Below, piece by piece: positions 978 to 2,330 of a DNA stretch of 5,815 nucleotides. The notes under the pieces are model-generated. The model saw nothing but the letters and a program-made list of their open reading frames with translations, had not been told where the DNA came from and did not search any database. A program made the position numbers and the translations under genes. The number at the start of each line of letters is the position of its first letter. Within the stretch, counting starts at the first letter, position 1. Location: assembly GCA_964565125.1 (NCBI GenBank), contig CAZMCX010000052.1, positions 1-5,815 of the forward strand, written 5' to 3'. The DNA comes from an uncultured archaeon. GTDB lineage: Archaea > Iainarchaeota > Iainarchaeia > Iainarchaeales > 0-14-0-20-30-16.

Positions 978-2330
978 ATGCCTTCGATTGTGAATAATTG
1001 GCCATTATATTTTAAGGACATACTAATTGTAAAAAATAAAGAACACAATGTTGGTGTTGTTACACTTTGGTCTAAGCCCGAATTTTTTGAAAAATTAAAT
1101 TGTAATACTGTCGGGACTTGTTATTCTATCGAAGGAATAAAATATATTTTACGAAATCTGGCAGGCAATACAAATATAAGATACCTTATTTTATGTGGCA
1201 CAGATTTATCAAAAACAGGGGAATTATTAAAGGAACTATTTGCCGGAAAATACAATATTGTAATATCTGACTTTTCTTTTGAAGATCTGGAAAGAATTAC
1301 CACAAATGTGGAACTAGTAGATATGATTGAAAATACAAACCCCAGTGAGGTACAAGAAAAAATAAATTCTCTTTCTGTAAAACAAGCATATGGCGAAGCA
1401 AAAGAGATAATAGTAAAAGAAAAATCACACTCCAAAAAGCCAAGTGAAAAAACTGGATTTGTAATCCGTGAAAAGAATATTGCGGATGCCTGGCTTAATG
1501 CTTTAAAATTGATAAAAGAGTATGGTATTGAGAAAAAAACAGCATATGGAATTGGCTCTTTAGAGATAATGAATTTAGTTACAGTTACAAATGAGCTAGA
1601 AGAAAGGCATGTTCCTAAATTTATGCAAATAACTAAAAAGCAAATAAAAGATTATGAAGATCAGATTTGTACTGGAAAACAAATAAAGTCTGTGGAATAC
1701 ACCTATGGCCAGAGGCTTTGTACGTACTTTATGTATGACCAGATAAAATGGGCAATAAATCAGCTAAAAATAGACAAAGATGGACGGCGGATTTTTTTGA
1801 CTCTCTGGGATCCACACAAGGACAAAGATTCGTCATTGCCGCCTTGTTTGGATTCAATCCAATTTTTAGTACAAAATAATTTTCTTTACATGACTGCTTA
1901 CTTTAGATCGCACGACATCTTTGGCGCGTACCATTTAAATGTTTTTGGTCTTAGAAAAATGCAAGAAATAGTTGCAAAAGAATCGGATTTGGATATCGGT
2001 GAATTAACTACAATAAGTTGTTCTGCGCATATATATTATAATGATATTCCTGCTGCAGAGGAGATTTTGAAATGGAACTATACCCTAAAATGTATTCCAG
2101 ACCCAAGAGGATATTTTTTTATTGAAGTTAAAGATAAAATTTATGCAAAATATTTGAATAATAGTGGAATTCCAGTAAAGACTTATTCTGGCGAAACCGC
2201 AAAGGAAGTTTATAATCAGATACTTTTAGATTTTGCAGTGTCCCAATTATCGCACGCATTTTATTTGGGTAAAGAATTATCAAGTGCCGAGAATGCACTA
2301 AAAACTGGAAAAAAGTATGTCCAGACATAA
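978..2330 (+). CDS. thyA: Thymidylate synthase-like protein (ThyA family, archaeal/methanogen-type core) with an MtrA-like N-terminal module and a DUF4346-like C-terminal tail
   Basis: The ThyA hallmark blocks are visible:
- YGQR.
- DQIKWAINQLKIDKDGRRIFLTLWDP.
- LPPC(290)LDSIQFLV, with the Cys codon at nt 1845-1847.
- YFRSHDIFGAYHLNVFG.
- SAHIYYN.

The N-terminal segment WP...VGVVTLWS...GTCYSIEGIKYILRNLAGNTNIRYLILCGTDLSKTGELL resembles MtrA (WP...TCGS...[38 protein letters not shown]).

The C-terminal segment DPRGYFFIEV...LSHAFYLGKELSSAENALKTGKKYVQ resembles the DUF4346 signature. Confidence 0.9.
   Translation: MPSIVNNWPLYFKDILIVKNKEHNVGVVTLWSKPEFFEKLNCNTVGTCYSIEGIKYILRNLAGNTNIRYLILCGTDLSKTGELLKELFAGKYNIVISDFSFEDLERITTNVELVDMIENTNPSEVQEKINSLSVKQAYGEAKEIIVKEKSHSKKPSEKTGFVIREKNIADAWLNALKLIKEYGIEKKTAYGIGSLEIMNLVTVTNELEERHVPKFMQITKKQIKDYEDQICTGKQIKSVEYTYGQRLCTYFMYDQIKWAINQLKIDKDGRRIFLTLWDPHKDKDSSLPPCLDSIQFLVQNNFLYMTAYFRSHDIFGAYHLNVFGLRKMQEIVAKESDLDIGELTTISCSAHIYYNDIPAAEEILKWNYTLKCIPDPRGYFFIEVKDKIYAKYLNNSGIPVKTYSGETAKEVYNQILLDFAVSQLSHAFYLGKELSSAENALKTGKKYVQT

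What the first reader, a model, noticed from the sequence alone, without database searches (positions are those of the whole stretch)
978..2330. Thymidylate-synthase core sandwiched between an MtrA-like module and a DUF4346-like tail
Seen in sequence: aa ~160-366 carry every ThyA hallmark I can check by eye.
- The RR pair is in KDGRRIF.
- The nucleophile Cys290 is in LPPCL.
- The Arg/Ser/Asp/Asn dUMP contacts are in FRSHD...HLN.
- The His/Tyr pair is in AHIYY.

The enzyme therefore looks catalytically competent. At 450 aa, however, it is far longer than canonical ThyA (E. coli ThyA is 264 aa).

The extra sequence is not low-complexity. aa ~8-90 resemble the cytoplasmic domain of MtrA, the corrinoid subunit of methyl-H4MPT:CoM methyltransferase. 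aa ~372-450 resemble DUF4346 (DP.GYF.I ... HA.YLG.EL..AE.AL..G..YVQ). As I recall, DUF4346 otherwise occurs attached to MtrA-like or pterin-binding (DHPS-like) domains.

Inference: a ThyA core appears to be inserted into, or fused with, a pterin-cofactor-associated scaffold. This would fit use of a non-folate C1 donor (methylene-H4MPT-like or other), or a new cofactor-delivery or regulatory arrangement, in a probably reduced archaeal genome. I cannot tell from here whether this architecture is already catalogued.
Basis: partly seen in the sequence, partly recalled or inferred. Interest (0 to 1): 0.7.

Follow-up and report, generated by a model that had tools for sequence, protein, structure and literature searches.

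The report
Three-domain thymidylate synthase of tiny microbes
The gene encodes a thymidylate synthase (the enzyme that makes the DNA letter T) whose small archaeal-type catalytic core sits between two extra conserved domains; the arrangement is real and recurs in hundreds of small-genome archaea and bacteria, but nobody appears to have studied what the extra domains do.

Summary
ORF 978-2330 (+, 450 aa) has three Pfam domains above their curated cut-offs: MtrA (aa 5-146), Thymidylat_synt (core aa 160-367) and PterinBD-DUF4346 (aa 375-449).

It is not a one-off. About 312 clusters at 50% identity and 192 GTDB species carry the same full-length architecture. They span DPANN archaea, Patescibacteria/CPR and Chloroflexota, including the cultured Minisyncoccus archaeiphilus and Oscillochloris trichoides. 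Public pipelines already call it "thymidylate synthase".

The ThyA catalytic residues are essentially invariant across 178 members. In 32 of 80 genomes the gene lies beside thymidylate kinase, dCMP deaminase, dUTPase or dCTP deaminase, and one member is fused to dCMP deaminase. So it most likely makes dTMP from dUMP.

The MtrA-like domain has lost the cobalt-ligating histidine but keeps the residues of MtrA's nucleotide-tail pocket. DUF4346 folds on its own, has no solved structural relative, and is unrelated to the ThyA C-terminus. Both flanks are conserved about as strongly as the core.

The core lacks the tryptophan loop and C-terminal lid of the canonical folate site, so I infer the flanks handle the cofactor. 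A non-folate donor remains untested. Some archaeal genomes carry canonical ThyA or ThyX next to this gene, which is unexplained. I rate it a new, uncharacterised variant of a known enzyme, of moderate interest.

The parts
978..2330 (+). Complete gene for the 450-aa three-domain protein (ATG start, stop codon included)
   Evidence: ORF list. The identical protein is found on 16 metagenome contigs. The full-length AlphaFold2 model has pLDDT 92.6 and pTM 0.84.
990..1415 (+). N-terminal MtrA-like Rossmann-type domain (aa 5-146), without the cobalt-ligating histidine
   Evidence: Pfam MtrA, 37.9 bits. NF002126, 58.9 bits. PDB 5laa, E = 6e-9. Y49 is invariant; W31, G46, G53, N60 and G74 are kept in 162-176 of 178 members.
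1194..1220 (+). Loop CGTDLSKTG (aa 73-81), the counterpart of the MtrA loop CGSEVQGH that carries His84
   Evidence: The HMMER alignment to 5laa places a gap or Ser/Thr where His84 lies. The family consensus is G-x-D-L-S-G-S-G. A His occurs in this loop in only 18 of 178 members and at no fixed column. The role of His84 is from PMC4915002.
1416..1454 (+). Linker (aa 147-159) ending in the conserved Pro155
   Evidence: pLDDT falls to 77-80 here. P155 is kept in 167 of 178 members.
1455..2078 (+). Minimal archaeal-type ThyA catalytic core (aa 160-367)
   Evidence: TIGR03283 covers 2-198 of 201 positions at 165.8 bits. Pfam Thymidylat_synt, 81.9 bits. Foldseek matches ThyA structures at E about 1e-14. 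hhalign against canonical ThyA gives 98.3% probability, aligned to residues 2-243 of 288.
1845..1847 (+). Codon of the nucleophile Cys290 in the LPPCL motif
   Evidence: C290 and P289 are present in 178 of 178 members. They align with the PC(H) motif of solved ThyA structures.
2100..2324 (+). C-terminal PterinBD-DUF4346 domain (aa 375-449), three strands followed by two helices
   Evidence: Pfam, 70.9 bits. Modelled alone it gives pLDDT 94.5. No PDB fold match, best E 0.17. D375, R377, G378, H426 and E433 are kept in 167-177 of 178 members.

Best explanation
The protein is a ThyA-type thymidylate synthase that converts dUMP to dTMP.

Proposed chemistry, by analogy with ThyA:
- Cys290 attacks C6 of dUMP.
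- dUMP is held by R310, S311, N321, H351 and Y353, and by R270/R271 reaching over from the partner subunit of a dimer.
- C5 takes the methylene group from a 5,10-methylene-tetrahydropterin cofactor, whose pterin ring is contacted by D313.
- A hydride from the cofactor then completes dTMP.

The core is the minimal archaeal (methanogen-type) version. It lacks the Trp80/Trp83 loop and the last ~45 residues that clamp the folate tail in canonical enzymes.

The two flanking domains form a conserved accessory module, found contiguous in another family. One is an MtrA-like Rossmann domain that has lost its cobalt ligand but keeps the nucleotide/phosphate pocket. The other is the small DUF4346 domain.

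I infer that this module binds, retains or positions the C1 cofactor at the otherwise open active site.

Shown here: the domain identities, the conservation, the loss of His84, and the dTMP-pathway gene context.
Inferred: the dimer, the chemistry, and above all the role of the flanks and the identity of the cofactor.
For: Catalytic residues:
- Kept in 171-178 of 178 members.
- Asn321, which specifies uracil rather than cytosine, is kept in 177 of 178.
- R270 is R or K in 176 of 178.

Gene context, from 80 species-level loci:
- Thymidylate kinase in 22, mostly adjacent on the same strand.
- dCMP deaminase in 17, dUTPase in 8, SHMT in 4, dCTP deaminase in 3 Chloroflexota.
- 32 of 80 loci have at least one of these.
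- Typical CPR operon: dCMP deaminase - kinase - this gene - Tmk - dUTPase.
- P0360 is a four-domain fusion with dCMP deaminase.

Core type:
- TIGR03283 is by far the best NCBIfam match.
- Foldseek and hhalign confirm the ThyA fold.

Flanks are under selection:
- Mean pairwise identity is 36% for the N-domain, 41% for the core and 41% for DUF4346.
- pTM 0.84 points to a fixed arrangement of the domains.

Pocket and module:
- MtrA's nucleotide-tail contacts are retained: T53 as S50, G57 as G53, N64 as N60, D17 as D14.
- An MtrA-like domain directly followed by DUF4346 exists in NF002128.

DUF4346's other associations are with pterin or redox proteins:
- DHPS-like TIGR00284.
- Stand-alone copies beside PTPS and RibD_C in marine cyanobacteria.
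- Ferredoxin fusions.
Against: - No enzymology exists for this family or, in any detail, for methanogen-type ThyA (PMC9931769, PMC9012536).
- Stand-alone short ThyA cores of 201-215 aa exist without either flank. The flanks are therefore not needed for the fold, and perhaps not for the chemistry.
- The Arg21 counterpart is absent, and position 222 (the Glu58 counterpart in a low-confidence part of the alignment) is Gln in the window protein.
- In 5 archaeal loci a canonical ThyA (L037, L075) or a Tmk-ThyX fusion (L053, L058, L066) lies within 2 kb. In 2 further loci a second ThyA-like paralogue is adjacent. Plain redundancy with this gene is therefore odd.
- I could not inspect the model coordinates, so no contact between the flanks and the active site has been shown.
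Confidence: 0.6

Rival explanations
1. It is a conventional folate-dependent ThyA. The flanks play no part in catalysis and serve only for oligomerisation, stability, regulation or partner docking.
For: - Stand-alone short cores exist.
- The neighbourhood is that of an ordinary dTMP pathway.
- SHMT is adjacent in L077, and DHFR-SHMT in L037.
- CPR bacteria do encode functional DHFR (PMC11974145).
Against: - The flanks are as conserved as the core, with invariant polar residues: Y49, N60, D76, D375, R377, H426, E433.
- The core lacks the canonical folate-clamping elements.
- DUF4346 recurs on other pterin-handling proteins.
Confidence: 0.2
2. It is a functionally diverged ThyA-family paralogue. 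It might hydroxymethylate dUMP or otherwise modify a pyrimidine nucleotide, or make dTMP only under particular cofactor conditions. This would explain why it coexists with canonical ThyA or ThyX.
For: - A second thymidylate synthase gene lies within 2 kb in L037, L075, L053, L058 and L066. ThyA-like paralogues lie beside it in L055 and L065.
- The core lacks the C-terminal lid that shields the active site from water.
- The best TM-scores are to short ThyA-fold enzymes with other chemistry: 9iqu, a dCMP hydroxylase (0.81), and 9iqc, a flavin-dependent enzyme (0.75).
Against: - Asn321, which specifies uracil, is kept in 177 of 178 members. His351, Tyr353 and Tyr243, as in ThyA, are kept in 175, 176 and 178.
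- In most CPR loci it is the only ThyA/ThyX-like gene in a dCMP deaminase - Tmk - dUTPase operon.
- Methanogen-type cores equally lack the lid and are still regarded as dTMP synthases.
Confidence: 0.1
3. It is self-sufficient. The MtrA-like Rossmann domain, possibly with DUF4346, re-reduces the dihydropterin product or supplies reducing equivalents. This would be a non-homologous analogue of the bifunctional DHFR-TS.
For: - The N-terminal Rossmann-type domain has a conserved phosphate/nucleotide pocket and a Gly/Ser-rich loop.
- DUF4346 is fused to ferredoxins next to an FNR-like gene.
- A stand-alone DUF4346 lies beside RibD_C, which has a DHFR-like fold.
- Many thyA-bearing genomes lack folA (PMC11974145).
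Against: - No dinucleotide- or flavin-binding family matches the N-domain.
- There is no direct evidence of a redox cofactor.
- L037 and L075 do have DHFR beside the gene.
Confidence: 0.06
4. It is a corrinoid-dependent thymidylate synthase. The MtrA-like domain would carry a methyl-corrinoid, bound without a histidine ligand, and pass the methyl group directly to Cys290-activated dUMP.
For: - Homology to the corrinoid protein MtrA, with the nucleotide-tail pocket residues retained.
- DPANN genomes do use B12. L085 carries a class II RNR-like large subunit and a PduO-type adenosyltransferase.
Against: - His84 is absent family-wide.
- The meander segment, the most conserved part of MtrA, is shortened by about 11 residues in the window protein.
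- No MtrH-like or other methyl-pterin methyltransferase, and no B12 uptake genes, recur in the 80 neighbourhoods.
- Asp313, the pterin contact, is kept in 171 of 178 members.
Confidence: 0.04

Closest known systems
Methanogen-type thymidylate synthase (NCBIfam TIGR03283; about 200-220 aa archaeal ThyA)
   Same: - It is the best-scoring family for aa 162-357, with near end-to-end coverage (2-198 of 201).
- It is the same minimal core, without the canonical Trp loop and C-terminal lid.
- It has the same catalytic residues.
   Different: - The score of 165.8 bits is just below the curated cut-off of 174.55.
- The window protein carries a 150-aa N-terminal MtrA-like domain and a 75-aa C-terminal DUF4346 that stand-alone enzymes lack.
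- Hosts include CPR bacteria and Chloroflexota.
Canonical ThyA (E. coli / L. casei type; PF00303, TIGR03284)
   Same: - Same fold: Foldseek E about 1e-14 and hhalign probability 98.3%.
- Same Cys nucleophile, Arg166/Ser167/Asp169/Asn177/His207/Tyr209 equivalents, and Arg126'/127' pair.
   Different: - No Arg21 equivalent.
- No Trp80/Trp83 loop.
- The last ~45 residues are missing.
- Only about 20-25% identity.
Cytoplasmic MtrA homologues and the soluble MtrA domain of the methyl-H4MPT:CoM methyltransferase (PDB 5laa, 5l8x; PF04208)
   Same: - Sequence homology over aa 6-144, E = 6e-9.
- The conserved beta2-alpha2 loop is kept, as are the residues that hold the cobalamin nucleotide tail.
   Different: - His84 (the cobalt ligand) is absent and Glu54 is not conserved.
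- There is no membrane anchor and no mtr operon.
- Scores fall far below the equivalog cut-offs (TIGR01111: 30 against 249).
- The meander segment is shortened in the window protein.
MtrA-like + DUF4346 proteins (NCBIfam NF002128) and DHPS-like + DUF4346 proteins (TIGR00284)
   Same: - They share the DUF4346 domain (44.8 and 48.2 bits) and, for NF002128, the MtrA-like domain directly upstream of it.
   Different: - Here a complete ThyA core of about 210 aa lies between the two domains.
- Whole-protein scores are far below both cut-offs (568 and 256.65).
Bifunctional DHFR-TS of protozoa and plants
   Same: - An accessory alpha/beta domain is fused N-terminally to a thymidylate synthase. Foldseek aligns the TS halves.
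   Different: - The N-domain here is MtrA-like, not DHFR; there is no DHFR_1 hit.
- There is an additional C-terminal domain.
- The function of the accessory parts is unknown.

Membership tests
ThyA thymidylate synthase (PF00303, EC 2.1.1.45) | Profile match above the curated cut-off, and the ThyA fold | tested here: met
   Pfam 81.9 bits against 24.3. Foldseek matches ThyA structures at E about 1e-14. hhalign probability 98.3%.
ThyA thymidylate synthase (PF00303, EC 2.1.1.45) | Catalytic Cys in the Pro-Cys motif, plus equivalents of Arg166, Ser167, Asp169, Asn177, His207 and Tyr209 | tested here: met
   C290, R310, S311, D313, N321, H351 and Y353 are present in the window protein and in 171-178 of 178 relatives.
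ThyA thymidylate synthase (PF00303, EC 2.1.1.45) | Four-arginine phosphate clamp (Arg21, Arg166, Arg126', Arg127') | tested here: inconclusive
   R310, R270 and R271 are present. The Arg21 position aligns to Ala189 and is variable in the family, while the neighbouring Tyr190 is conserved.
ThyA thymidylate synthase (PF00303, EC 2.1.1.45) | Canonical folate-binding elements: the Trp80/Trp83 loop and the C-terminal lid | tested here: not met
   hhalign covers only residues 2-243 of a 288-aa canonical ThyA. The IWDEW segment has no conserved counterpart.
ThyA thymidylate synthase (PF00303, EC 2.1.1.45) | dUMP to dTMP activity with a methylene-tetrahydropterin | not testable with these tools
   Only indirect support: Tmk, dCMP deaminase, dUTPase or Dcd as neighbours in 32 of 80 loci, and a fusion with dCMP deaminase.
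Methanogen-type ThyA (TIGR03283 equivalog) | Whole-protein score at or above the curated cut-off of 174.55 bits | tested here: not met
   165.8 bits, covering 2-198 of 201 positions. A near miss; the core is of this type, but the protein is not an equivalog by NCBI's rule.
MtrA corrinoid protein (PF04208 / TIGR01111) | Domain-level profile match | tested here: met
   Pfam 37.9 bits against 25. PDB 5laa, E = 6e-9.
MtrA corrinoid protein (PF04208 / TIGR01111) | His84 as lower axial cobalt ligand, hydrogen-bonded to Glu54 | tested here: not met
   A gap or Ser/Thr lies at the His84 position. A His occurs in the loop in only 18 of 178 members, at no fixed column. The Glu54 position is variable (PMC4915002).
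MtrA corrinoid protein (PF04208 / TIGR01111) | Equivalog score, C-terminal membrane anchor, and an mtrA-H operon context | tested here: not met
   TIGR01111 scores 30 bits against 249.15. The domain is followed by ThyA, not by a membrane helix. No mtr genes occur in the window or in the extended contigs.
PterinBD-DUF4346 (PF14251) | Profile match above the cut-off, with the conserved DPRG ... HAxxLGxE motifs | tested here: met
   70.9 bits against 29.6, covering 2-85 of 86 positions. D375, R377, G378, H426, G431 and E433 are conserved.
Bifunctional DHFR-TS | N-terminal dihydrofolate reductase domain | tested here: not met
   No DHFR_1 match in the protein. DHFR is a separate gene, fused to SHMT, in L037 and L075.

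The most novel reading that the evidence does not exclude
The MtrA-like and DUF4346 domains are not passive. Together with the minimal ThyA core they would form a mechanistically distinct thymidylate synthase. The enzyme would bind its own C1 or redox cofactor: a non-folate pterin, a tightly held folate that is recycled in place, or a histidine-free corrinoid. That would free CPR, DPANN and some Chloroflexota from the classical ThyA/DHFR cycle, and would explain why the gene sits beside canonical ThyA or ThyX in some genomes.
Probability: 0.12. Interest if true: 0.85.

Novelty: new variant of a known kind. Interest (0 to 1): 0.45.

Why it matters
Thymidylate synthesis is essential, and only two enzyme types (ThyA and ThyX) are known.

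This family appears to be the thymidylate synthase built into the minimal nucleotide operons of many CPR bacteria and DPANN archaea. Their C1-cofactor supply is unclear, and archaeal-type ThyA biochemistry is almost unexplored (PMC9931769, PMC9012536).

Working out what the two conserved flanking domains do could reveal:
- how a lid-less ThyA core binds its cofactor;
- which C1 carrier these organisms use;
- the function of DUF4346 in its other settings, namely H4MPT-pathway DHPS-like enzymes, MtrA paralogues, ferredoxin fusions and cyanobacterial stand-alone copies.

There is also a practical point. PF04208 (MtrA) is used as a methanogenesis marker in metagenome surveys. This family gives MtrA-domain hits in non-methanogens, and stand-alone DUF4346 proteins are variously mislabelled 'MtrA', 'dihydropteroate synthase' or 'thymidylate synthase'.

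Tried and rejected
1. Variants lacking the MtrA domain, or gene splits, as Rosetta-stone evidence. The 'ThyA+DUF4346' proteins of 310-345 aa turned out to be artefacts.
   - P0248 lies downstream of an MtrA-like ORF, but the two are one reading frame broken by a single in-frame TAG.
   - P0244 is cut by a run of N in the assembly.
   - P0245 is at a contig end.
2. DUF4346 as a diverged ThyA C-terminus. Rejected: hhalign probability 0.2%, and no ThyA hit by Foldseek.
3. A solved structural relative for DUF4346. None was found by sequence or by Foldseek against the PDB.
5. DHFR-SHMT adjacency as proof of folate use. Weakened, because both loci that have it (L037, L075) also carry a canonical 288-aa ThyA next to it.
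6. Literature. No paper in the held library mentions DUF4346, PterinBD or PF14251, or joins thymidylate synthase with the archaeal MtrA. Nyce & White 1996 and de Crecy-Lagard 2012 could not be opened.
7. The window has no tRNA or Rfam element.
8. Whole-genome presence or absence of folA, thyX and cofactor pathways could not be tested.
9. Interdomain contacts could not be read, because model coordinates and PAE are not returned.
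Full report
THE OBSERVATION

The window holds a 450-codon ORF at 978-2330 on the + strand.
- KDGRRIF at aa 267-273, so the Arg pair is R270/R271.
- LPPCL at 287-291, which gives Cys290.
- FRSHD at 309-313 and HLN at 319-321.
- AHIYY at 350-354.
- DPRGYF at 375 and HAFYLG at 426.

Pfam finds three domains, all above their curated cut-offs:
- MtrA, aa 5-146: 37.9 bits against 25.
- Thymidylat_synt, aa 239-365: 81.9 bits against 24.3.
- PterinBD-DUF4346, aa 375-449: 70.9 bits against 29.6.

NCBIfam shows that the catalytic part is of the short methanogen type. TIGR03283 covers aa 162-357, which is 2-198 of its 201 positions, at 165.8 bits. That is just under its cut-off of 174.55. 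Canonical ThyA models score only about 70 bits.

The N-domain matches the sequences of the solved MtrA structures 5laa and 5l8x at E = 6e-9 and 3e-6. The one correction is that the MtrA-like part spans about 140 residues, not 80.

THE HOST AND THE SURROUNDINGS

The window is AT-rich, about 31% G+C. Its neighbours are:
- a FlaJ/T2SSF-type pilus membrane protein (9-914);
- a Lys/Glu-rich coiled-coil protein without family (2375-3265);
- an M50-type membrane protease (3289-3879);
- an ATP-dependent DNA ligase (4005-5801).

Longer contigs carrying the identical protein add a T2SSE ATPase, RNA cyclase, a proteasome subunit and a beta-CASP/KH nuclease. All of these are archaeal housekeeping genes.

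The nearest genome is a Candidatus ainarchaeum (DPANN) MAG, with 91% identity and the same gene order. In this particular genome the gene is not in a nucleotide-metabolism operon. The window contains no tRNA or Rfam element.

HOW COMMON THE ARCHITECTURE IS

The first homology search returned more than 100 clusters at 90% identity with the same three Pfam domains, 450-550 aa long. Several were already named 'thymidylate synthase' by NCBI or JGI.

An exhaustive HMMER pass over 1.84 billion representatives at 50% identity gave 312 proteins at E <= 1e-30. Nearly all of the best 150 matched end to end.

A scan of one genome per GTDB species found 192 species:
- DPANN archaea: Woese-, Pace-, Aenigmat-, Micr-, Nano- and Iainarchaeota.
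- Patescibacteria/CPR, including the cultured Minisyncoccus archaeiphilus.
- Chloroflexota, including Oscillochloris trichoides DG6.

So the architecture is catalogued and recurrent. I nevertheless found no paper describing it.

WHAT THE CORE DOES

I aligned 178 non-identical members. The ThyA catalytic set is essentially invariant:

| Residue | Kept in (of 178) |
|---|---|
| P289, C290 | 178 |
| R310 | 178 |
| S311 | 174 |
| D313 | 171 |
| N321 | 177 |
| H351 | 175 |
| Y353 | 176 |
| Y243 | 178 |
| R270 | 166 as R, 10 as K |
| R271 | 120 as R |

Asn at position 321 is the residue that makes ThyA act on uracil rather than cytosine. That statement rests on established knowledge of the family.

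I called ORFs in 80 species-level loci and clustered them. I confirmed the representatives with Pfam and counted neighbours with phmmer:
- Thymidylate kinase in 22 loci, mostly overlapping or within 110 bp on the same strand.
- dCMP deaminase in 17.
- dUTPase in 8.
- SHMT in 4.
- dCTP deaminase directly downstream in 3 Chloroflexota.
- At least one of these in 32 of 80 loci.

Typical CPR loci read dCMP deaminase - small kinase - this gene - Tmk - dUTPase - GatB. One family member, P0360, is a four-domain fusion ending in a dCMP deaminase. All of this points to dUMP as substrate and dTMP as product.

THE SHAPE OF THE CORE

The AlphaFold2 model is confident, with pLDDT 92.6 and pTM 0.84. Foldseek finds ThyA structures at E about 1e-14. 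The highest target-normalised TM-scores are to short ThyA-fold enzymes: 9iqu (0.81) and 9iqc (0.75).

A profile comparison with a canonical 288-aa ThyA aligns only to its residues 2-243. It also shows:
- the Trp80/Trp83 loop has no conserved counterpart;
- the Arg21 position is not conserved;
- the last ~45 residues, the lid over the folate, are absent.

The core therefore has an open cofactor site, as in methanogen-type enzymes.

THE N-TERMINAL DOMAIN

In MtrA, cobalamin is held base-off/His-on by His84, which is hydrogen-bonded to Glu54. Its nucleotide tail lies in a pocket made by Asp17, Lys52, Thr53, Gly57 and Asn64 (PMC4915002).

In this family:
- The His84 position is a gap or a Ser/Thr. 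The consensus loop is G-x-D-L-S-G-S-G.
- Only 18 of 178 members have any His in that loop, and at no fixed column.
- Glu54 is not conserved.
- The window protein and its closest relatives also lack about 11 residues of the 'meander' segment.
- The tail-pocket residues persist: S50 in 140 of 178 (T in a further 18), G53 in 176, N60 in 162, D/E/N14. Tyr49 is invariant.

So the domain cannot be a His-on corrinoid carrier, but it keeps a conserved pocket suited to a phosphate- or nucleotide-bearing ligand.

THE C-TERMINAL DOMAIN

Modelled alone, DUF4346 folds confidently into three strands and two helices, with pLDDT 94.5.
- It has no solved relative by sequence or by fold, where the best Foldseek E is 0.17.
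- It is unrelated to the C-terminus of canonical ThyA, with hhalign probability 0.2%.
- Its invariant polar residues (D375, R377, G378, H426, E433) suggest a binding or catalytic surface.

Elsewhere the domain occurs in four settings:
- at the C-terminus of DHPS-like TIGR00284 proteins;
- directly after an MtrA-like domain in NF002128;
- as a stand-alone protein of 85-140 aa, for example beside PTPS and RibD_C in marine cyanobacteria;
- fused to a ferredoxin in Woesearchaeota, near an FNR-like gene, dUTPase, NrdR and a ribonucleotide reductase.

ARE THE FLANKS FUNCTIONAL?

Mean pairwise identity is 36% for the N-domain, 41% for the core and 41% for DUF4346. The flanks are therefore under constraint similar to that on the enzyme itself.

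Apparent two-domain or split versions were artefacts: an in-frame TAG, a run of N, and a contig end. Genuine stand-alone short cores do exist, in a Woesearchaeota MAG and on a virus-like contig.

MOST LIKELY MECHANISM

The enzyme is a ThyA-type dTMP synthase whose lid-less core is completed by a conserved accessory module. I infer that this module binds or positions the C1 cofactor.

I put the dTMP synthase activity at about 0.85 and the specific role of the flanks at about 0.4, giving 0.6 overall.

Shown here: domain identity, conservation, loss of His84, and gene context.
Inferred: the dimer, the chemistry, and the cofactor-handling role.

WHAT REMAINS ODD

Some archaeal loci carry a second thymidylate synthase within 2 kb:
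- L037 and L075 have a canonical 288-aa ThyA plus a DHFR-SHMT fusion directly beside this gene.
- L053, L058 and L066 have Tmk-ThyX fusions.
- L055 and L065 have a further ThyA-like paralogue.

This may reflect acquired cassettes, different cofactor use, or a diverged function. It keeps alive the rival readings: a paralogue with other chemistry, a built-in reductase, and corrinoid methyl transfer. No MtrH-like or B12-uptake genes recur near the gene, which counts against the corrinoid idea.

COMPARISON AND VERDICT

- By function it is closest to methanogen-type ThyA.
- By membership it passes the Pfam ThyA, MtrA and DUF4346 domain tests.
- It misses the TIGR03283 equivalog cut-off narrowly.
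- It fails MtrA's defining histidine and operon context.
- It is not a DHFR-TS.

Overall it is a member of an already catalogued but unstudied family. I rate it a new variant of a known kind of enzyme, of moderate interest. The interest would rise sharply if the flanks prove to carry their own cofactor chemistry.

Noticed in passing
L037 5256-8008 and L075 4430-7011: Two Woesearchaeota genomes carry a canonical 288-aa ThyA followed by a DHFR-SHMT fusion protein (605 and 573 aa), directly beside the three-domain gene and Tmk. That puts two ThyA-type genes in one cluster.
   Followed up: partly
L058 5412-8426, L053 2388-4679, L066 10206-12475: Thymidylate kinase and ThyX lie 0.6-1.9 kb downstream of the three-domain gene. 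They form one fusion ORF in L058 (1004 aa, Tmk-Tmk-ThyX) and in L053 (763 aa). In L066 they are adjacent genes.
   Followed up: partly
L055 9775-10728 (-) and L065 486-1694 (+): A second, divergent ThyA-like paralogue (317 and 402 aa; Pfam Thymidylat_synt 30-37 bits, with PCLQR and RSRD motifs) lies next to the three-domain gene in a Patescibacteria MAG and a Nanoarchaeota MAG. Its function is unknown.
   Followed up: partly
L095 5896-5898 (same in L096): A family member is interrupted by a single in-frame TAG between the MtrA-like and ThyA parts. It is identical in two independent assemblies, and the linker sequence continues in frame after the stop. It could be a nonsense allele, read-through or recoding.
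   Followed up: partly
L083 9479-10714 and L084 9479-10720 (Oscillochloris): The dCTP deaminase gene 15 bp downstream of the three-domain gene is 411 aa long. By eye it contains an intein-like insert (CFSADT ... VHNC).
   Followed up: no
P0161 / L085 6001-6588; P0184 / L089 6001-6390: DUF4346 also occurs fused to a Fer4_15 ferredoxin (about 193 aa, Woesearchaeota), near an FNR-like gene, dUTPase, NrdR and a ribonucleotide reductase. It also occurs as a stand-alone 129-aa protein in marine cyanobacteria, close to PTPS and RibD_C. JGI labels such stand-alone proteins inconsistently as MtrA, dihydropteroate synthase or thymidylate synthase.
   Followed up: partly
P0360 (733 aa), P0324 (786 aa), P0344 (837 aa): There are longer relatives. 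P0360 adds a C-terminal dCMP deaminase domain. P0324 shows two DUF4346 stretches, possibly a tandem duplication. P0344 has about 350 extra C-terminal residues with no family match.
   Followed up: partly
L001 10608-12157 versus L002 5801-5870: One contig carrying the identical gene has an IS200/IS605 pair (Y1 transposase plus OrfB/TnpB-like) inserted between the DNA ligase and RNA cyclase genes. The window's own version lacks it, so this is a strain-level polymorphism.
   Followed up: no
L097 4082-4687: A 201-aa stand-alone ThyA core of this clade sits on a virus-like contig with terminase and portal genes.
   Followed up: no
window 2375-3265 (+): A 296-aa Lys/Glu-rich, probably coiled-coil protein with no Pfam family and only weak SMC-like NCBIfam hits. 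The ORF at the same position in the Ca. ainarchaeum genome (L005) was not compared with it.
   Followed up: no
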